In this document: one piece after another, positions 6,107 through 53,325 of the stretch | Layout of the letters: every line of letters starts with the position of its first letter | Numbering within the stretch: position 1 is the first letter of the stretch | NCBI GenBank assembly: GCA_001784875.1 | Contig: MFSH01000008.1 | Location: forward strand, 1,555 to 65,554 | Source: Candidatus Moranbacteria bacterium RIFOXYB1_FULL_43_19 | GTDB taxonomy: Bacteria > Patescibacteriota > Minisyncoccia > Moranbacterales > UBA11712 | DNA: 64,000 nt | Reading direction: 5' to 3' | The notes under the pieces: generated by a model | Databases searched by the model: none | What the model was told of the DNA's origin: nothing | What the model saw: the letters and a program-made list of their open reading frames with translations, nothing else | Made by a program: the position numbers and the translations under genes

Positions 6107-6136
6107 CCGCCCCGAGTCCATCGGGGCGGTTTTTTT
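6107..6136 (+). terminator. intrinsic terminator after rplY
   Basis: The hairpin CCGCCCCGA-gtcca-TCGGGGCGG is followed by TTTTTTT. Confidence 0.6.
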
Positions 6137-6315
6137 AGAGCCCCGCACCATGCCTTTTGCGTTTTGCTTCACATGCTTTTAAAATTATATCCTGCTGGAA
6201 GCGAAAATCGCCGTGGCGTATTCTGCGGTACGGGGTAAATTATGATATAATCTAGGAAAACAAGGAAGCGCGTTCGCAAGAATGCTTCATCCAAAATGAT
6301 TTGCCAAGAACCAAA

Positions 6316-7623
6316 ATGAAAAAAATATTTTCTAAAGTAAAATTATTTCCCATATATTCAGCAAATATCGGAGTAGTATTTTTAGCTGTTCTTCTTTTTG
6401 GGAAAATGGGAACAGGGGCGGCGGTGCCGTCCCAGAAGGAAATTATCAAAACCAGAATCGATGACCTCCGCAAGCAAATAGAAATATATCAAAAAAATAT
6501 TGAGGAAAAAAACCACAAGGAAGAGTCGCTTTCAAATGATATTGAAATCCTTGAAGCCGACATAAAAAAGATTGAGCTTCAAATTCAGGAAACAAATCTT
6601 CAAATTGACGCCCTTGAGGGAGAAATAACTCAGAAAGAAATTGAAATTGAAAAAATGCAAAAGCAGCTTGAGGCAAAGAAAGAGATGCTGGCGAAATTTT
6701 TGCAGGAGCTTTATGAAAAGGGCGGGGGAGAAACATCTGAGATTGTATTCAGTGGGCAAAGCTTTTCGGATTATTTCTCCAAAATCGAGAGCCTTGAAAG
6801 TTTTGAAGACCAGATCAAAGAGACACACGACCAATTGGAAGCTTCGCGGAATGTGCTCAAAGGCGAGAAAGAAAATTTGGTGGACAAAAAAATAGACAAG
6901 GAAAATTTGAGAGGTATGCAGAATGACCAGGAAAGATCACTAGAGCGCGAAAAACAAATGGAGACACTATTGATTTCCCAAGTCAGAAATGAAAGGCAGG
7001 CTCTGGAAAAAAATGTAGGCAGGCTCCAAGCGGAACTAAGCGAGCTCCAGTCGCTTGGCGAGCCAATCAATTTGGAAGAAGCGGTAAAGGCGGCGAAATA
7101 CGCTGCGGATCTCACGGACGTGGCGCCTGAATTTTTGCTAGGGGTGCTTCGGGTTGAATCGGGACTGGGAACGAACGTCGGCGGCGGAAAATACAAATCG
7201 GACATGAATCCGTCTCAGTGGGATACTTTTAAAAAAATTTGCAAAGAGCTTGGGCTCGATCCGGACAAAACTCCCGTTTCCCGCCGGGCTTGCTACAACA
7301 GTGAGGCGAGTGACGGATGCGGTGGATGGGGAGGGGCGATGGGTCCAGCTCAATTTATGCCTTCGACCTGGATGGGATATAAGAGCCAAATCGAAAAAAC
7401 CACGGGCCGCTCTCCGGCCAACCCATGGGACGTCGAAGATTCTCTTGTGGCCATGGGTTTGAAACTCGGGTCAGTTGAAGGAGTGAAAGCGGGGGATAGG
7501 AAAGCTTGGGCAAAAGCGGCGGGAATGTATCTCGCGGGTTCTAACTGGGAAAAGTATTCCTGGTATTCAGACAGGGTTCTTTATTACGCGGACGGGTTCA
7601 AAAAAATAATGAAAAAATATTGA
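6316..7623 (+). CDS. coiled-coil protein with a C-terminal lytic-transglycosylase (SLT)-like domain
   Basis: A signal/TM segment is followed by about 250 aa of heptad-rich coiled coil. It ends in an SLT-like domain (LRVESGLGTN...GPAQFMPSTW). The ATG at 6316 is preferred over the TTG at 6301. Confidence 0.6.
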   Translation: MKKIFSKVKLFPIYSANIGVVFLAVLLFGKMGTGAAVPSQKEIIKTRIDDLRKQIEIYQKNIEEKNHKEESLSNDIEILEADIKKIELQIQETNLQIDALEGEITQKEIEIEKMQKQLEAKKEMLAKFLQELYEKGGGETSEIVFSGQSFSDYFSKIESLESFEDQIKETHDQLEASRNVLKGEKENLVDKKIDKENLRGMQNDQERSLEREKQMETLLISQVRNERQALEKNVGRLQAELSELQSLGEPINLEEAVKAAKYAADLTDVAPEFLLGVLRVESGLGTNVGGGKYKSDMNPSQWDTFKKICKELGLDPDKTPVSRRACYNSEASDGCGGWGGAMGPAQFMPSTWMGYKSQIEKTTGRSPANPWDVEDSLVAMGLKLGSVEGVKAGDRKAWAKAAGMYLAGSNWEKYSWYSDRVLYYADGFKKIMKKY

Positions 7624-7680
7624 TTGGAAAATGGGGACTATTTTTGTCAAGTTTTTTGTCAGAAATTTACGCAGGTTCGA

Positions 7681-7709
7681 TTGACGAATTGCAAAAATAG
7701 TTATATAAT
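7681..7709 (+). promoter_or_regulatory. sigma70-like promoter (TTGACG, 17 nt spacer, TATAAT)
   Basis: The -35 hexamer TTGACG lies at 7681-7686 and the -10 hexamer TATAAT at 7704-7709, with a 17 nt spacer. Confidence 0.3.
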
Positions 7710-7715
7710 AATAGC

Positions 7716-7820
7716 GTAGAATCCAATAACGGGGGATTTGCGCCCCGGCGAAAAAGCGCCGCTTCGCGGCAATTTCACGGGGCGAGAAGGGTGATTTACA
7801 TGGGTGTAAATCGCTTTTTT
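7716..7820 (+). ncRNA. candidate structured leader or small RNA ending in an intrinsic terminator, upstream of the CAP-domain gene
   Basis: GC-rich hairpins (CGGGGGATTTGCGCCCCG, GCGCCGCTTCGCGGC) are followed by the terminator GATTTACA-tggg-TGTAAATC plus TTTTTT at 7793-7820. The longest ORF in the element is 9 aa. Confidence 0.3.
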
Positions 7821-7854
7821 GATTACTAAAAAATAATAATAATTCATATAACTT

Positions 7855-9264
7855 TTGGAGTGGGGTGAGCTCAAACGCTTGATGGCAGAATTCCTTTATC
7901 GGGTGAAACGGGTGAGTCATGTGAATAGGGTGAGCTCAAAAAGAATACTGGCGGAAGATTCGGCCAATTTTGATGTTGGAAAAATTTCTCTTCCTCGGCT
8001 TTCTGACGGGCTGTTTCTTTTTGGCACGGTAGCCCTCTCGGCTGCTTTCTTCCTGTTTGTCATATTGATAAATACGGCTTGGGCATCTTCCATCACAAAA
8101 AATAAAGTTATTGAACTGGCGAACGCGGACAGAAGGGAAAAGGGAGTTGAGGAACTCAAAGAAAACGAGAAGCTTTCGCAAGCTGCCGCAAGCAAAGCCG
8201 AGGACATGATAGTCAACAATTATTTTTCCCATACTTCTCCTGAAGGATTGACACCCTGGCGCTGGATTGAAAAAACCGGTTATGAATACAGTTATGCCGG
8301 GGAAAATTTGGCAATGGATTTTACCTCGGCCGAAAAAATGAACGAGGCTTGGTTGGCGAGCCCAACCCATCGCGCCAACATTTTGAATGAAAAATACAAA
8401 GAAATTGGCGTAGCGGCAAAAGACGGATTTATAAACGGGCATGCGACAACCATTATTGTCCAGATGTTTGGCTCCGGGGACAAAAGCGCTCCCAAGGAAG
8501 AGGAGGCAGGCGAGCCATCAGAAAAAGAGACAGTCGCCGATCAGGGAAACCTTGTTCCTTTCTTGCCGGCCAGCGGCGAGAGAGCAGACAAATTATCACT
8601 TGCCAGTCCCTTGATTACTTCCCCGCGAAATGCCGAGACACTAAATAACAAAAATATAAATATTGTCGGACGGGCCAATCCTCACAGCGCGGTGACAGTT
8701 TTTGACAATGGGACGGCTGTAGGGGACATTATTTCCGATGCCCAAGGCTGGTTCAGGCTGGAGATCAAAGATGCCTCCGAAGGCAGCCACGATTTGATGG
8801 CTACGGCGGAAAGTGTTGCTGCAGGAAGAAAAGAAATCCGGATATCCGATAAAATATCGTTTCGGGTTGACCGCGAAAAGCCTTCGCTAAACTACCATTT
8901 GTATGCCGACAGCCAGGATGGCAAATATATCGTCCGTGTATTTTCAAATAAAAAGAATTGCTATTTCGAACTGGGAGGGAAAAAGTCGCCAAAGAGCTCC
9001 ACAGGCGTGGCAACTTTTTCCGTTGAGACCCGCCAGTCGTCAATTGTGGCCATAGTATCGGATCAGGCTGGAAACAAAACAAAAAAACAAATTGTCCTCG
9101 CGAATTATTTTGCCGGAAGCAAAAAAGGCATTTTTGACAATCTGGCACTTTCTTTCTCACCCCGAACCGCCCTTTCGGATGATTCAGGAAGAAAGATGCT
9201 TGCGCAAAATTTGGGCCTTGTCTCTCACCACTTTCCACAATTAGCAGATGATAATCAAAAATAA
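7855..9264 (+). CDS. secreted or membrane-anchored CAP/SCP-domain protein (YkwD-like) with C-terminal Ig-like region
   Basis: A TM anchor is followed by the CAP domain (NYFSHTSPEG...AGENLAMDF...WLASPTHRANIL). The start is uncertain because the 5' end carries GGGTGAGCTCAAA repeats. Confidence 0.6.
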   Translation: MEWGELKRLMAEFLYRVKRVSHVNRVSSKRILAEDSANFDVGKISLPRLSDGLFLFGTVALSAAFFLFVILINTAWASSITKNKVIELANADRREKGVEELKENEKLSQAAASKAEDMIVNNYFSHTSPEGLTPWRWIEKTGYEYSYAGENLAMDFTSAEKMNEAWLASPTHRANILNEKYKEIGVAAKDGFINGHATTIIVQMFGSGDKSAPKEEEAGEPSEKETVADQGNLVPFLPASGERADKLSLASPLITSPRNAETLNNKNINIVGRANPHSAVTVFDNGTAVGDIISDAQGWFRLEIKDASEGSHDLMATAESVAAGRKEIRISDKISFRVDREKPSLNYHLYADSQDGKYIVRVFSNKKNCYFELGGKKSPKSSTGVATFSVETRQSSIVAIVSDQAGNKTKKQIVLANYFAGSKKGIFDNLALSFSPRTALSDDSGRKMLAQNLGLVSHHFPQLADDNQK

Positions 9265-50377: not shown

Positions 50378-53254
50378 ATGAATAAGATCATTATAAAAGG
50401 TGCTAGAGAACATAATCTCAAAAACATCGACCTTGAACTTCCGCGGGGGAAGTTTATCGTGTTCACGGGAATCAGCGGGTCGGGAAAAAGTACACTCGCA
50501 TTCGACACCATTTTTGCCGAAGGGCAAAGGCGGTATCTTGAAAGTTTGTCGAGTTATGCCCGGCAGTTTTTGGGACAAATGGAAAAACCGGATGTGGATT
50601 CAATCGAAGGTTTGAGCCCTGCGATTTCGATTGACCAGAAAGCCTCATCGCACAATCCGCGCTCGACAGTCGGGACAGTGACGGAAATCCAAGACTATCT
50701 GCGGCTTCTCTATGCCAAAATCGGACGGCCGCACTGCCCGGTATGTGGAAAAGAAATTTCGAAACTTTCAATTGATGAAATTGTGGATCGGATACTAACA
50801 TTCAATGCTCCGGGAACATTGAATGTTTTAGAAATTCTTTCACCGGTAGTCCGCGAGCGGAAAGGTGATTATGCCACGCTTCTTGCGGAGATGTGGAAAA
50901 GGGGATTCGCGGAGGCCTACGTGGATGGAAAAAAAGTGGTCCTCGAAGATGAAGCGAAAAAAGGAAAAATACTCGCCAGATACAAAAAACACAGCATTGA
51001 TATTTTGATTGATACGGTTGAAATCAGCGATAAAAATATTAGCCGGATATTTGAAAGTGTTGAGTCGGCGCTCAAGTTGTCTAAGGGATTGGTGAAAGTT
51101 ATTCCCGAAACGCATAACACGAAACACGACACGCGAGGGGAAGGGATTATTTTCAACCAAAATATGGCTTGTCCGGATCATGAGGACGTGGTTTTCCCAG
51201 AACTCGAGCCGAGGCTGTTCTCTTTCAATAGTCCGCAGGGGGCTTGTCCTGACTGCGAAGGATTGGGAACGAAAAAAGAAATTGATCCGAGCCTCATCAT
51301 TCCCGACAAAACCCGAACGATTGCCGAAGGGGCGATCATGCCCTGGAGCTACAAGCCGAACAACTACCAAGGCTCGATTTTGCGGGCGGTGACGAACTAT
51401 TATCATATTCCCGACAACGTCCGTTTCCGGGATTTGAGCGAAAAACAGCAAAATATTTTATTGTATGGGGATGAGGAACCAGAGGATATTGAAGTGCGGC
51501 TGAAGACAAAAACCGGAGCAGTTTGGCGCTTTGACGTCACCTGGAACGGAATTTTGGGCTTTATGCGCGACCGCTATTTCAAGACCGAATCGGAAGCGGT
51601 GCGGCAGGACATTGAAAAATATATGTCCCAAAGTCCGTGCAGCGCCTGCAAAGGTTCACGATACAAGCCGGAAGCGCTGTTAATAACAGTTGGAAGTCGT
51701 AATATTGCCCAAGTTTCAAAAATAAGCGTAAATGAAACGCTGAAATTTTTTGAGAGTTTGAAACTGAACGAGCGGGAAAAAATAATCGCGGGAAAAATCT
51801 TGAACGAAGTGAAAAGCCGCCTGAAATTTTTGGATGATGTCGGGTTGGGCTATTTGACCCTGGCCCGTTCAGCCAATACTCTGGCAGGCGGAGAAACACA
51901 GCGAATTCGTCTTGCTTCTCAAATCGGTTCGCAACTGGTCGGAGTCCTATACATTCTCGACGAACCGTCTGTTGGTCTTCATGCACGTGACAATGCGAAG
52001 CTTCTTGATACGCTGCTTAAGTTGAGAGACATTGGCAACACAGTGATTATTATCGAACATGACGAGGAAACTATCCGGAGTGCCGATCATCTGGTTGACA
52101 TCGGGCCGGGTGCGGGAAGGCTTGGCGGGGAGATTGTGGCTGAAGGAAAAATTAAAGATATCGAAACTGCTAAGAATTCTGTCACTGGCAAATACTTACG
52201 GGGAGAACTTGAAATTTCAATCCCAAAGGGTCGCCGGCCAGTGCGAAACAAAAAATGGCTGACCGTGAAAGGAGCGACAGAGCATAATCTCAAAAACGTG
52301 ACGGTTGAATTTCCTTTGAAAACTTTGACGTGCGTGACGGGCGTTTCGGGGTCGGGAAAATCAACACTCGTCGAAGACATTCTTGGAAAAGGACTTTCAG
52401 CAAAAATCATGCGTTCGCTGGAGCGGCCAGGCCGGCACAAGGAAATTCTCGGTACGCAGTATGTGGACAAAGTGATCCATATCAACCAGTCGCCGATCGG
52501 GAGGACGCCGCGATCGAACCCGGCGACATATGTGGGATTTTTCACACTGATTCGAGAACTTTTTGCGATGACAAAAGATGCGAAGCGGCATGGTTATGGT
52601 CCGGGAAGGTTTTCTTTCAACGTGAATGGGGGGCGTTGCGACAATTGCCGCGGGGAAGGATTTTTGAAAGTTGAAATGCAGTTTATGCCGGATGTATTTT
52701 TGCCGTGTGATGTCTGTCGCGGAAAAAGATACAACCGGGAAACGCTCGAAGTGAAATATAAAGGAAAAAATATCGCCGATATTCTCGCGATGACGGTTTC
52801 GGAAGGAAAAGTTTTTTTTGAAAATTATCCACGGATATATGCGCCGCTCAAAGTCCTCGAGGAGGTCGGGCTGGGATACATCAATCTTGGCCAGGCGGCG
52901 ACAACGCTCTCGGGCGGGGAAGCGCAGAGAATCAAACTGGCCTCGGAACTTTCGCGGCGGATGACCGGAAATACATTATACATTCTTGATGAGCCGACAA
53001 CAGGACTGCATTTCGACGACGTGAAAAAATTATTGAACGTTCTCCATCGCTTGGTGGAGGCGGGAAATACTGTTATTGTGGTTGAGCACAATATGGATGT
53101 TATCAAAACGGCCGATTGGATCATTGACCTTGGACCGGAAGGCGGGGACAATGGCGGACGCGTGGTGGTCACCGGCCCGCCGGAAGAAGTGGTGAAGTAT
53201 CATCAAGAAAGTTATACCGCAAAATTTCTTCGCGACGTAATTCGTAAATCGTAA
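50378..53254 (+). CDS. uvrA: excinuclease ABC subunit A
   Basis: Two ABC ATPase modules (GISGSGKSTL, GVSGSGKSTL), zinc fingers and LSGGE signatures are present. An in-frame ACACG repeat lies at 51107-51137. The last codons lie inside a family D repeat. Confidence 0.92.
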   Translation: MNKIIIKGAREHNLKNIDLELPRGKFIVFTGISGSGKSTLAFDTIFAEGQRRYLESLSSYARQFLGQMEKPDVDSIEGLSPAISIDQKASSHNPRSTVGTVTEIQDYLRLLYAKIGRPHCPVCGKEISKLSIDEIVDRILTFNAPGTLNVLEILSPVVRERKGDYATLLAEMWKRGFAEAYVDGKKVVLEDEAKKGKILARYKKHSIDILIDTVEISDKNISRIFESVESALKLSKGLVKVIPETHNTKHDTRGEGIIFNQNMACPDHEDVVFPELEPRLFSFNSPQGACPDCEGLGTKKEIDPSLIIPDKTRTIAEGAIMPWSYKPNNYQGSILRAVTNYYHIPDNVRFRDLSEKQQNILLYGDEEPEDIEVRLKTKTGAVWRFDVTWNGILGFMRDRYFKTESEAVRQDIEKYMSQSPCSACKGSRYKPEALLITVGSRNIAQVSKISVNETLKFFESLKLNEREKIIAGKILNEVKSRLKFLDDVGLGYLTLARSANTLAGGETQRIRLASQIGSQLVGVLYILDEPSVGLHARDNAKLLDTLLKLRDIGNTVIIIEHDEETIRSADHLVDIGPGAGRLGGEIVAEGKIKDIETAKNSVTGKYLRGELEISIPKGRRPVRNKKWLTVKGATEHNLKNVTVEFPLKTLTCVTGVSGSGKSTLVEDILGKGLSAKIMRSLERPGRHKEILGTQYVDKVIHINQSPIGRTPRSNPATYVGFFTLIRELFAMTKDAKRHGYGPGRFSFNVNGGRCDNCRGEGFLKVEMQFMPDVFLPCDVCRGKRYNRETLEVKYKGKNIADILAMTVSEGKVFFENYPRIYAPLKVLEEVGLGYINLGQAATTLSGGEAQRIKLASELSRRMTGNTLYILDEPTTGLHFDDVKKLLNVLHRLVEAGNTVIVVEHNMDVIKTADWIIDLGPEGGDNGGRVVVTGPPEEVVKYHQESYTAKFLRDVIRKS

Positions 53255-53325
53255 TTTGTAATTGGGATAATTTTCACTACAACTAGTTGTAGTGAGTTTT
53301 ACTACTATATATAGTAGTAAAATAA
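53231..53325. repeat. family D 3'-end element (GACGTAATTCGTAAATCGTAATTTGTAATTGGG plus two perfect hairpins)
   Basis: It supplies ...DVIRKS-stop to uvrA. The hairpins CACTACAACTAGTTGTAGTG and TTTACTACTATATATAGTAGTAAA follow. Confidence 0.5.

What the first reader, a model, noticed from the sequence alone, without database searches (positions are those of the whole stretch)
7681..7854. Promoter plus terminated, structured ~100 nt leader upstream of the CAP-domain protein gene
TTGACG, a 17 nt spacer and TATAAT (7681-7709) are followed by GC-rich hairpins. A clean intrinsic terminator (GATTTACA-tggg-TGTAAATC plus T6, 7793-7820) lies only about 35 nt before the ORF at 7855. There is no coding potential in the element. 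This architecture is typical of riboswitch or attenuator control, or of an independent sRNA. I could not match it to a known riboswitch class.
Basis: seen in the sequence. Interest (0 to 1): 0.55.

Follow-up and report, generated by a model that had tools for sequence, protein, structure and literature searches.

The report
Conserved terminator leader RNA in Moranbacteria
A strong promoter, a small two-hairpin RNA ending in a transcription terminator, and a repeated GGGUGA signal that runs into the gene itself are conserved upstream of one cell-envelope gene in an uncultured bacterial lineage, and they match no known RNA family, so this is probably an undescribed gene-control element.

Summary
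TTGACG-17-TATAAT (7681-7709) is the best promoter match in 6 kb. The RNA from about 7716 folds into hairpins and ends in a hairpin plus U6 (7785-7820).

The window is from a Candidatus Moranbacteria (CPR) genome. All 13 orthologous loci fetched by protein similarity, and 19 more fetched by a DNA pattern, keep three things between an SLT-like gene and the CAP-domain gene:
- the promoter (11-12 of 12 matches);
- a 9-bp 5' hairpin P1, which covaries;
- a terminator P2 with an invariant G.U-rich base (GGGUGAUU/AAUCGCUU) and a covarying top.

Rfam 15 has no match.

No second promoter lies between P2 and the gene, so the gene is probably read through P2. GGGUGR recurs three to five times per locus, only here. 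Copies flank the conserved ATG (7882, the likely true start), and inside the ORF they are held at synonymous sites.

No intrinsic antiterminator and no ligand pocket is evident. My best reading (0.45) is a factor-dependent attenuator leader. The main rival is a stand-alone or decoy sRNA. This looks like a new RNA motif, and its function is untested.

The parts
7644..7651 (+). TTGTCAAG box, an invariant upstream element exactly 29 nt before the -35 hexamer
   Evidence: It is invariant in alignment A1 and present at the same 29-nt distance in L021, L073 and L074. TTGTCAAG-N29-TTGAC occurs once in the window against 0 expected. Its function is unknown; a transcription-factor site, or pairing with the -35 region, are possibilities.
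7681..7709 (+). Sigma-70-type promoter: -35 TTGACG, 17-nt spacer, -10 TATAAT (extended TATATAAT 7702-7709)
   Evidence: It scores 11 of 12. It scores 11-12 of 12 with a 17-nt spacer in 27 of 28 homologous loci. The hexamers are invariant in A1.
7716..7741 (+). P1: a 5'-terminal hairpin. GUAGAAUCC (7716-7724) pairs with GGGAUUUGC (7733-7741). The predicted transcription start is at about G7716.
   Evidence: Nine pairs are 97% paired across 22 distinct sequences, and 5 pairs show changes on both sides, for example U-A/U.G/C-G and A-U/G.U/G-C. The loop takes inserts of up to 56 nt in homologues. The window copy has one bulged A.
7741..7784 (+). P1a: a GC-rich insert hairpin between P1 and P2. It is optional and lineage-specific.
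   Evidence: It is folded. It is present in the window, L035, L046 and L060, with variants in L013, L051 and L071. It is absent in L011, L012, L014-16, L021, L022, L026, L028, L037 and L039.
7785..7820 (+). P2: an intrinsic terminator hairpin. It has the invariant base AAGGGUGAUUU (7787-7797) / AAAUCGCUU (7808-7816), loop UGGG (7801-7804) and U6 (7815-7820).
   Evidence: All 23 distinct versions fold as a hairpin plus U-tract, at -12.5 to -20.4 kcal/mol. Eight base pairs are invariant, including three G.U pairs, and the upper pairs covary. Six of six loci fetched by protein alone carry the exact sequence. L073 has a roughly 60-nt insert in the loop.
7821..7862 (+). Variable AT-rich spacer without a conserved promoter
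   Evidence: Its length is 29-177 nt in homologues. There is no sigma-70-like site of 9 of 12 or better in 26 of 28 loci.
7863..7872 (+). GGGUGAGCUC copy 1, in the 5' UTR 10 nt before the start codon (12-17 nt from its GGGUGA core to the AUG in the homologues read)
   Evidence: GGGUGAGCU(C/U) is present in 27 of 29 loci examined (L031 has CGAGCUCG instead; L069 has no copy). It is part of the only GGGTGA cluster in the window.
7882..7884 (+). The conserved ATG, the likely true start of the CAP-domain gene (gene 7882-9264)
   Evidence: It is an invariant column in A1. It is in frame in all 26 homologues scored. Pfam CAP PF00188 matches at E = 3.2e-16.
7901..7919 (+). GGGUGA copies 2a (7901-7906) and 2b (7910-7919, GGGUGAGUCA) inside codons 7-13
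   Evidence: The codon 18 nt upstream of copy 3 is NGG (CGG 13, AGG 5, UGG 6, giving Arg or Trp), followed by GUG in 21 of 26.
7928..7938 (+). GGGUGAGCUCA copy 3, inside codons 16-19 of the gene
   Evidence: Arg is encoded only as AGG or CGG, or is replaced by Gly GGG. Val is GUG in 25 of 26, Ser is UCA in 25 of 26, and Ser is AGC in 19 of 19. At 49 other conserved 4-6-fold-degenerate columns of the same 24 genes, about 4 codons are used and the commonest codon makes up 25-83%.

Best explanation
This is a lineage-specific cis-acting 5' leader of the CAP-domain gene in Candidatus Moranbacteria.

Proposed mechanism. The near-consensus promoter at 7681-7709 starts an RNA at about 7716. The first nine bases of that RNA form hairpin P1. 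A few bases later in most homologues (after an optional insert hairpin in the window), the intrinsic terminator P2 (7785-7820) stops most transcripts and yields a 105-nt RNA. Only polymerases that read through P2 make the CAP mRNA. P2 therefore sets, and probably regulates, expression of the gene.

No competing antiterminator helix is conserved, and the minimal versions leave no room for a ligand pocket. The switch is therefore most likely a trans-acting factor that recognises the reiterated single-strand element GGGUGR. One copy is the 5' arm of P2, and a degenerate copy is the 3' arm of P1. Binding there would keep P2 from forming. Further copies bracket the start codon at about -15 and +20 to +50, where the same factor would also act on translation.

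Shown: the promoter, P1, P2, their conservation and covariation, the absence of a second promoter, the exclusive linkage to this gene, and the nucleotide-level constraint on the repeats.

Inferred: that P2 terminates in vivo, that read-through feeds the gene, and that a factor binds GGGUGR. The factor could be a protein, or the 3' end of 16S rRNA, whose UCACCU is complementary to GGGUGA with one G.U pair.
For: - Source and synteny: the window is Candidatus Moranbacteria (GCA_001784975.1; named). The gene order RodA-L25-SLT-like-CAP-MurA-MreB is conserved.
- Linkage from the protein side: 13 of 13 CAP orthologue loci fetched by protein only (36-66% identity) carry the promoter plus terminated leader. 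The most divergent, L069, has it in altered form.
- Linkage from the DNA side: 19 of 19 true hits of a DNA-pattern scan that ignored the neighbouring genes are followed by the same gene start.
- Structure: 96.3% of cells are paired, against 91.9% in shuffles (0 of 500 reach the observed value) and 30-57% when the partner is slid. Seven pairs change on both sides. The conserved G.U pairs would be A.C on the other strand, so the RNA is on the + strand.
- Single copy: the covariance model finds one strong hit per locus and nothing else in 228 kb.
- No own promoter: there is no sigma-70-like promoter between P2 and the gene in 26 of 28 loci, and the spacer is as short as 29-32 nt. The leader promoter scores 11-12 of 12.
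- Repeats: five GGGTGA lie in 145 nt here, against 24 in the whole window on both strands. There is one such cluster per homologous locus and none elsewhere in 198 kb.
- Synonymous-site constraint inside the ORF.
- A U-tract of 5 or more is present in all loci fetched by protein.
Against: - No transcript data exist. Termination and read-through are inferred from sequence only.
- No conserved alternative (antiterminator) structure was found. The possible P1-5'/P2-5' pairing is lost in L012, L061 and L071, where P1 itself covaries (my reading). The terminator could therefore simply be constitutive.
- P2 is strong, so read-through may be very low.
- The factor is unidentified, and GGGUGR matches no binding motif known to me (my own knowledge; a literature search for the string gave nothing relevant).
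- CPR promoters other than sigma-70 type would be missed.
- The sequences fetched with the DNA pattern cannot speak to the invariance of the P2 base, because the pattern required it.
- The alignment for one search was trimmed by hand: inserts were cut and one 2-nt bulge was removed.
Confidence: 0.45

Rival explanations
1. It is a stand-alone small RNA gene whose product works in trans. One version is a decoy that titrates the GGGUGR-binding factor away from the CAP mRNA, in the manner of CsrB/CsrA or GlmY/GlmZ. Its position next to the gene would then be synteny, or local target-plus-decoy organisation, rather than read-through control.
For: - It has its own near-consensus promoter and a strong terminator with a U-tract of five or six U in every locus.
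- A hairpin at the very 5' end plus a 3' terminator hairpin is the usual build of stable sRNAs (established knowledge).
- No antiterminator is conserved.
- The RNA carries 2-3 copies of the same hexamer found around the start codon of the neighbouring mRNA.
Against: - It is never found away from the CAP gene: 19 of 19 by DNA pattern and 13 of 13 by protein.
- It is always on the same strand, 29-177 nt upstream, with no detectable promoter left for the gene.
- It has no conserved single-stranded seed. The loops and linker vary, and the conserved bases are in stems.
Confidence: 0.3
2. There is no sensing. P2 is simply the terminator of the upstream SLT-like gene, with constitutive partial read-through. 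The promoter is the ordinary CAP promoter placed in that gene's 3' UTR, and P1 is a 5' stabiliser hairpin. The sequence conservation would reflect efficiency, not regulation.
For: - No terminator lies between the stop of the upstream gene (7623) and the promoter, so its transcripts would also end at P2.
- 5'-terminal hairpins are known mRNA stabilisers (established knowledge).
Against: - Ordinary terminators are not held invariant over about 20 nt, including three G.U pairs, across genomes whose proteins are only 40-47% identical and whose synonymous sites are saturated.
- This reading does not explain the GGGUGR copies around and inside the ORF.
- It does not explain why a promoter would be kept upstream of a strong terminator in every lineage.
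Confidence: 0.12
3. It is a small metabolite- or ion-sensing riboswitch with a terminator-embedded aptamer, as in the HMP-PP (thiS) class.
For: - The sequence conservation lies inside the terminator stem, and a small hairpin sits just upstream. That is the layout reported for the HMP-PP riboswitch (title and abstract of PMC6478431, seen).
- The regulated gene sits in a cell-wall gene cluster.
Against: - No Rfam family matches, even at E = 10.
- The minimal members (L012 at 67 nt, L022 at 69 nt after TATAAT) are two helices joined by 2-4 nt, with variable loops.
- Inserts of 30-115 nt are tolerated in the P1 loop, the linker and the P2 loop.
- No conserved alternative pairing was found.
- The same hexamer recurs in the ORF, which a ligand pocket does not explain.
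Confidence: 0.06
4. The repeats act at the DNA level, as binding sites for a transcription factor (a roadblock or operator array). Examples are TGAGCTCA and TGAGTCA-like palindromes within GGGTGAGCTCA, and the TTGTCAAG box upstream.
For: - TGAGCTCA is an 8-bp palindrome that occurs twice (7865-7872 and 7930-7937).
- The TTGTCAAG box lies at a fixed 29 nt from the -35, which looks like a DNA-level constraint.
Against: - All GGGTGR copies are on the transcribed sense strand and downstream of the start site.
- The flanks are asymmetric (GGG on one side, AAA on the other).
- The copies are spaced irregularly (74, 38, 9 and 18 nt).
- In P2 the hexamer takes part in a helix whose upper part covaries (the six pairs formed by the hexamer itself never vary).
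- The palindrome is broken in several lineages (GAACTC, GGACTC, GAGCTT).
Confidence: 0.07

Closest known systems
TRAP-controlled trp leader and TRAP-regulated translation in Bacillus subtilis (protein-mediated attenuation through reiterated short RNA elements)
   Same: Both have a promoter-proximal terminator in a leader. In both, a short element is reiterated many times on the sense strand, some copies overlap terminator-forming sequence, and further copies lie at the translation start region (in TRAP's case, of other regulated genes). This comparison rests on established knowledge of TRAP.
   Different: The element here is GGGUGR, not (G/U)AG. There are 3-6 copies at irregular spacing rather than 11 copies spaced by 2-3 nt. 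No antiterminator helix is evident. No TRAP-like protein is identified. The lineage is CPR.
CsrA/RsmA targets and CsrB-type decoy RNAs
   Same: In both, a short G-rich motif is repeated in a small RNA and around the start codon of a target mRNA. A decoy logic is possible.
   Different: CsrA needs GGA, usually in hairpin loops. Here the invariant core is GGGUG(A/G) and is mostly in stem arms. GGA is not conserved. The presence of CsrA in these genomes was not tested.
HMP-PP (thiS motif) riboswitch with a terminator-embedded aptamer (PMC6478431)
   Same: Both are very small leaders whose conserved nucleotides lie inside the intrinsic terminator stem.
   Different: There is no Rfam match. There is no conserved unpaired pocket or alternative helix. 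Large inserts are tolerated. The gene context is different.
Terminated leaders that double as trans-acting sRNAs (for example the Listeria SreA/SreB riboswitch-derived RNAs), and the ToxI-terminator-toxN layout of type III toxin-antitoxin loci
   Same: The layout is promoter, short structured RNA, strong terminator, then a protein gene fed by read-through. The short product may have its own function.
   Different: No riboswitch aptamer is recognised. There are no tandem 36-nt repeats (nothing of that kind was seen by eye; no tandem-repeat scan was run). The downstream gene is an envelope CAP-domain protein, not a toxin.

Membership tests
Any Rfam 15 family (riboswitches, leaders, sRNAs) | Score at or above the family's gathering threshold against its covariance model | tested here: not met
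   The window has only two tRNAs elsewhere. Region 7550-8050 at E up to 10 gives two chance hits upstream of the element. Twenty homologous loci (147 kb) give no hit.
Intrinsic (Rho-independent) terminator | Stable hairpin immediately followed by a U-tract on the transcribed strand | tested here: met
   P2 is -15.2 kcal/mol in the window, followed by U6. All 23 distinct homologues fold the same way with U5-6. In vivo or in vitro termination was not tested.
Transcription attenuator / riboswitch expression platform | Terminator lies between the promoter that serves the gene and the gene's start codon | tested here: met
   The leader promoter scores 11-12 of 12. No other sigma-70-like promoter lies in the 29-177-nt spacer in 26 of 28 loci. 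Promoters of another type cannot be excluded.
Transcription attenuator / riboswitch expression platform | Conserved mutually exclusive antiterminator structure | tested here: not met
   The only candidates (P1-5' with P2-5', and P1-3' with P2-3') are 5-7 bp. They do not follow the covariation of P1 in L012, L061 and L071 (sequences; pairs).
Metabolite-binding riboswitch aptamer | Conserved unpaired nucleotides forming a pocket, with fixed architecture across members | tested here: not met
   Minimal members are two abutting helices with a 2-4-nt linker and variable loops. Inserts of 30-115 nt occur at three positions. Ligand binding itself is not testable here.
Trans-acting base-pairing sRNA | Own promoter and terminator | tested here: met
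Trans-acting base-pairing sRNA | Conserved accessible (single-stranded) seed region | tested here: not met
   The conserved columns are in the P1 and P2 stems. The loops and linker vary.
Protein-titrating or protein-regulated RNA with reiterated sites (TRAP-, CsrA-type) | Short motif reiterated far above chance in the leader and/or at the translation start | tested here: met
   There are 5 GGGTGA in 145 nt, against 24 in 128 kb of strand. The cluster is unique in each of 22 of the 23 loci scanned (L016 has two exact copies only; its copy 1 reads GGGTGG). The copies are held at synonymous sites.
Protein-titrating or protein-regulated RNA with reiterated sites (TRAP-, CsrA-type) | Motif equals the known recognition element (GAG/UAG for TRAP, GGA for CsrA) and the cognate protein is encoded in the genome | tested here: not met
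   The motif is GGGUG(A/G), and GGA is not conserved. Whether a cognate protein is present was not tested, because no whole genome was available.
Type III toxin-antitoxin (ToxI-like RNA) | Tandem direct repeats of the antitoxin RNA upstream of a terminator and a toxin gene | tested here: not met
   The leader has no tandem repeats (sequence read). The downstream gene is CAP PF00188 with Ig-like domains.

The most novel reading that the evidence does not exclude
GGGUGR marks a dedicated RNA-level control circuit in Candidatus Moranbacteria, a lineage of the candidate phyla radiation (CPR). One trans-acting factor would read the same hexamer in three places: in the 5' arm of a leader terminator, in the 5' UTR, and inside the first 20 codons of a single envelope gene. 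It would thereby couple antitermination and translation. The factor could be an unknown RNA-binding protein. Alternatively it could be the free 30S subunit acting through its anti-Shine-Dalgarno tail, in a genome where most genes lack Shine-Dalgarno sequences. To my knowledge (no targeted literature search was run), this would be the first attenuation system described in the CPR, and a new recognition element.
Probability: 0.3. Interest if true: 0.75.

Novelty: new variant of a known kind. Interest (0 to 1): 0.58.

Why it matters
As far as I know, and as far as the literature searched here shows (searches found nothing for Moranbacteria), regulatory RNAs of the candidate phyla radiation are essentially uncharted. 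These organisms have tiny genomes and few recognisable regulators.

This element is well delimited, phylogenetically supported and specific to one gene. It has a testable architecture: promoter, two helices, terminator and a reiterated hexamer. It controls, or accompanies, a surface CAP-domain/Ig-like protein that sits in the cell-wall and morphogenesis cluster (RodA, MurA, MreB).

The element gives a concrete handle for metatranscriptomic re-analysis and for simple in vitro transcription tests. If a GGGUGR-binding factor exists, it would define a new attenuation system. The ORF-internal constraint is also a clear example of overlapping RNA and protein codes.

Tried and rejected
- Rfam at gathering and permissive thresholds, on the window and on 20 homologous loci, gave nothing.
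- Leader peptide: the 9-codon ORF from ATG 7800 is not conserved. Many homologues have ACG, AUU or CUU at that position.
- Intrinsic antiterminator: P1-5'/P2-5' and P1-3'/P2-3' pairings look possible in the window. They do not track P1 covariation in L012, L061 and L071, so I rejected them.
- Long-range helix between hexamer copies 1 and 3 enclosing the start codon. RNAalifold gives only 8 weak pairs (-4.9 kcal/mol) with no double-sided change. Single-sequence folds use the palindrome UGAGCUCA. A C.A mismatch appears in 7 lineages (my tally from the sequences). This is left as unproven.
- Local mini-hairpin GGGUGA[GCU]UCRCYY at copy 1: it is good in L014, L017, L035, L067 and L071 but absent in the window clade, so it is not general.
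- GGGUGA as the usual ribosome-binding site: most genes in the window have no SD, and those that do use GGAGG. The spacing to the ATG is 12-17 nt, so it is not an ordinary SD.
- A second promoter in the spacer: none was found.
- Other copies in the genome: there is no other AAGGGTGATTT or AATCGCTTTTTT in the window and no other covariance-model hit.
- ACGAAT/ATTCGT repeat element: the only window hit is inside the coding end of the 958-aa ORF 50378-53254 (not identified here), so it is chance.
- Literature searches for Moranbacteria plus riboswitch (0 papers) and for GGGUGA (nothing relevant).
The anti-SD idea therefore rests on the general bacterial consensus.

Full report
**1. What is in the window**

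Between the stop of a coiled-coil/SLT-like gene (6301-7623) and a CAP-domain gene lies a 230-nt intergenic region. It contains the following:
- TTGACG, a 17-nt spacer and TATAAT at 7681-7709. This scores 11 of 12 and is the best of seven promoter-like sites in 6 kb. The number of sites is not above chance, so the single match alone proves little.
- RNA from 7716 to 7825, which folds at -45.7 kcal/mol (z = -4.3, 0 of 200 shuffles as stable) into three hairpins.
- The last hairpin (7785-7820), which is GAUUUACA-UGGG-UGUAAAUC extended by GGGUGA/UCGCUU and followed by U6.

The terminator is missing from the consensus scan, probably because the stem can extend into the T-run. Rfam 15 gives no match at gathering thresholds or at E up to 10.

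**2. Where it comes from and whether it is conserved**

The L25 protein of the window is found on contigs of Candidatus Moranbacteria RIFOXYB1_FULL_43_19 (GCA_001784975.1) and on related metagenome contigs. The gene order there is RodA-L25-SLT-like-CAP-MurA-MreB.

I fetched orthologous loci in two independent ways:
- By protein. Six genome loci have 47-66% identity. Seven further loci came from orthologues of 36-44% identity. All 13 carry a consensus promoter followed by a terminated leader in front of the CAP gene. The most divergent, L069, has it in a modified form.
- By a DNA pattern taken from the terminator. This gave 48 hits, of which 19 are true homologues. Every one of those is followed by the same gene start. 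The rest are chance matches in coding DNA.

The linkage therefore holds in both directions.

**3. Anatomy from comparison (23-28 distinct sequences)**

(a) An invariant TTGTCAAG box lies exactly 29 nt upstream of the -35.

(b) The promoter is TTGAC(N)-17-TATATAAT, scoring 11-12 of 12 in 27 of 28 loci.

(c) P1 is a 9-bp hairpin that starts at the predicted +1 (GUAARAUCC/GGGRUUUUGC).
- 97% of cells are paired, and five pairs change on both sides (A-U/G.U/G-C, U-A/U.G/C-G, A-U to U-A, A-U to G-C).
- The loop accepts inserts of up to 56 nt.

(d) An optional insert hairpin lies between P1 and P2.
- The GC-rich hairpin at 7741-7784 is this insert.
- It is shared with L035, L046 and L060, and in variant form with L013, L051 and L071.
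- It is absent from most loci.

(e) P2 is the terminator.
- Its base, AAGGGUGAUUU/AAAUCGCUUUUU, never varies, even in the loci fetched without reference to it.
- The base contains three G.U pairs. Its upper part covaries freely. One homologue has a roughly 60-nt insert in the loop.
- In L069 the 3' arm reads UCAC instead of UCGC. This turns a U.G pair into U-A while GGGUGA is kept.

Overall, 96.3% of cells are paired. That compares with 91.9% in column shuffles (0 of 500 reach the observed value) and 30-57% when partners are slid. The G.U pairs would be A.C on the opposite strand, so the structure belongs to the + strand RNA. The caveats are that the alignment was trimmed by hand and that the pattern-fetched loci cannot speak to the invariance of the P2 base.

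**4.

GGGTGA occurs five times in 7789-7933 on the + strand, against 24 times in the whole window on both strands. Twenty-two of the 23 loci scanned have one such cluster (three to five exact copies; L016 has only two), at this place, and no other cluster exists in 198 kb.

The copies are placed as follows:
- Copy 1 (GGGUGAGCUY, 7863-7872) lies 10 nt before an invariant ATG at 7882 (12-17 nt from its GGGUGA core to the AUG across the homologues). This ATG, not the TTG at 7855, is the likely start.
- Copies 2a and 2b (7901 and 7910) lie inside the first 20 codons.
- Copy 3 (GGGUGARCUCA, 7928-7938) also lies inside the first 20 codons.

Within the ORF the hexamer is always read NGG-GUG-ARN. Codon use is strongly restricted:
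- The first codon is AGG, CGG, UGG or GGG (Arg, Trp or Gly). It is never another Arg or Gly codon.
- Val is GUG in 25 of 26.
- The next Ser is AGC in 19 of 19, or is replaced by AAC or GAC.
- The following Ser is UCA in 25 of 26.

As a control for relatedness, I examined 49 other conserved 4-6-fold-degenerate columns in the same 24 genes. They use about four codons each, and the commonest codon makes up 25-83%. Genome codon usage does not explain the bias either. These bases are therefore constrained as nucleic acid, not as protein.

**5. Cis or trans?**

The spacer between P2 and copy 1 is 29-177 nt long and variable in sequence. In 26 of 28 loci it contains no sigma-70-like site of 9 of 12 or better, whereas the leader promoter is near-perfect everywhere. 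The covariance model finds the leader only at this locus.

This argues that the CAP mRNA starts at the leader promoter and must pass P2. That is the definition of an attenuator. It also means P2 ends transcripts of the upstream gene, which has no terminator of its own.

Several points weigh against a simple attenuator:
- No conserved antiterminator exists. The two conceivable alternative pairings are short and do not follow P1's covariation.
- P2 looks efficient.
- A hairpin-capped, terminator-ended RNA is also what a stable sRNA looks like.

A metabolite riboswitch is unlikely for three reasons:
- Minimal members are two abutting helices with variable loops.
- Large inserts are tolerated at three positions.
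- There is almost no conserved unpaired sequence.

**6. Most likely mechanism**

I commit to a factor-dependent attenuator (confidence 0.45). A trans-acting factor recognises single-stranded GGGUGR.
- Bound to the 5' arm of P2, and to the related GGGGRU in the 3' arm of P1, it would prevent the terminator from forming.
- Bound to the copies around the start codon, it would affect translation.

This is the logic of TRAP in Bacillus, but with a different element and an unknown protein.

A speculative alternative factor is the 30S subunit. GGGUGA(U) is complementary to the UCACCU of the general bacterial 16S 3' end. Most genes in this window have no Shine-Dalgarno sequence, and those that do use GGAGG. 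I could not retrieve a Moranbacteria 16S to check this.

The terminated 105-nt RNA may additionally act as a decoy for the same factor (rival, 0.30).

The lesser rivals are:
- a constitutive terminator plus stabiliser hairpin (0.12);
- DNA-level operator sites (0.07);
- a riboswitch (0.06).

**7. Comparison with known systems and novelty**

The element works like a promoter-proximal terminator leader. It is not a member of any Rfam family. The closest analogues are:
- TRAP/trp, which uses reiterated short elements for attenuation plus translation control;
- CsrA/CsrB, which has a repeated G-rich motif and a decoy RNA;
- the HMP-PP riboswitch, which has conservation embedded in the terminator (PMC6478431);
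- leader-derived sRNAs.

For each of these, a defining feature (the recognition element, the antiterminator, the aptamer or the seed) was tested and not met. I therefore file it as a new variant of a known kind. The two literature searches run for Moranbacteria with riboswitch and for the hexamer string found nothing relevant.

**8. Verdict**

This is a real, conserved, structured, terminated leader RNA that is unique to the CAP-domain gene of Moranbacteria. It extends into the ORF through a reiterated hexamer. Its function is inferred, not shown. Interest is 0.58. It would be higher if transcript data confirmed regulated read-through or if a GGGUGR-binding factor were found.

Noticed in passing
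window 7644-7651: An invariant TTGTCAAG box lies exactly 29 nt upstream of the -35 hexamer in the homologues where I counted it (window, L021, L073, L074); the box itself is present in every homologue except L069. It is an inverted copy of the -35 (TTGACA on the minus strand). No usable -10 follows it on either strand. It may be a transcription-factor site.
   Followed up: partly
L012:2898-3008, L013, L028, L051, L060, L061, L072:1320-1460, L074:1385-1470 (between the terminator and GGGTGAGCT): A long imperfect palindrome built from ACGAAT/ATTCGT-type repeats is inserted in the spacer in about a third of homologues. It is absent from the window. It may be a further 5'-UTR hairpin or a small mobile repeat. 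The only similar string in the window (53234-53260) is coding DNA at the end of the 958-aa ORF 50378-53254.
   Followed up: partly
window 7865-7884: The GUG inside hexamer copy 1 opens a 5-codon uORF (GUG AGC UCA AAC GCU UGA). Its stop overlaps the CAP start as UGAUG. In the related 'GCUC' clade the uORF also ends on or next to the AUG (UAAUG, AUGA). In other clades it is in frame with the gene or overlaps it out of frame. Termination-reinitiation coupling is possible in part of the family.
   Followed up: partly
window 7855 vs 7882: The longest ORF, and the public gene call of 469 aa, start at TTG 7855. The only start codon conserved in all homologues is ATG 7882 (460 aa).
   Followed up: yes
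window, many gene starts (e.g. 16533 +, 42649 +, 35459 -): Most long ORFs have AT-rich upstream regions without a Shine-Dalgarno sequence. Several have a TATAAT-like hexamer only 0-12 nt before the ATG. This suggests frequent leaderless or SD-independent initiation in this genome.
   Followed up: no
window 6107-6129: A strong GC-rich intrinsic terminator (CCGCCCCGAGTCCATCGGGGCGG followed by T7) lies directly after the L25 gene. The SLT-like gene therefore has its own transcription unit, and that unit runs into the leader terminator P2.
   Followed up: no
L067/L068 8209-9305; L074 3104-3968: In one homologous contig a diversity-generating retroelement (bAvd plus reverse transcriptase) lies about 3 kb downstream of the CAP gene, after a 645-aa protein. 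In another contig a nucleotidyltransferase/HepT-like (MNT-HEPN) pair follows the CAP gene.
   Followed up: no
L069 620-775: The most divergent orthologue (36% identity) has two tandem terminator-like hairpins that both display GGUGA. One is CGCCG-GGUGA-CGGCG followed by AAU6. The other is AAAGGGUGAUUC...GGGGUGAAUCACU6. It has no GGGUGA copies in the ORF. This suggests that the leader copies are older than the ORF copies.
   Followed up: partly
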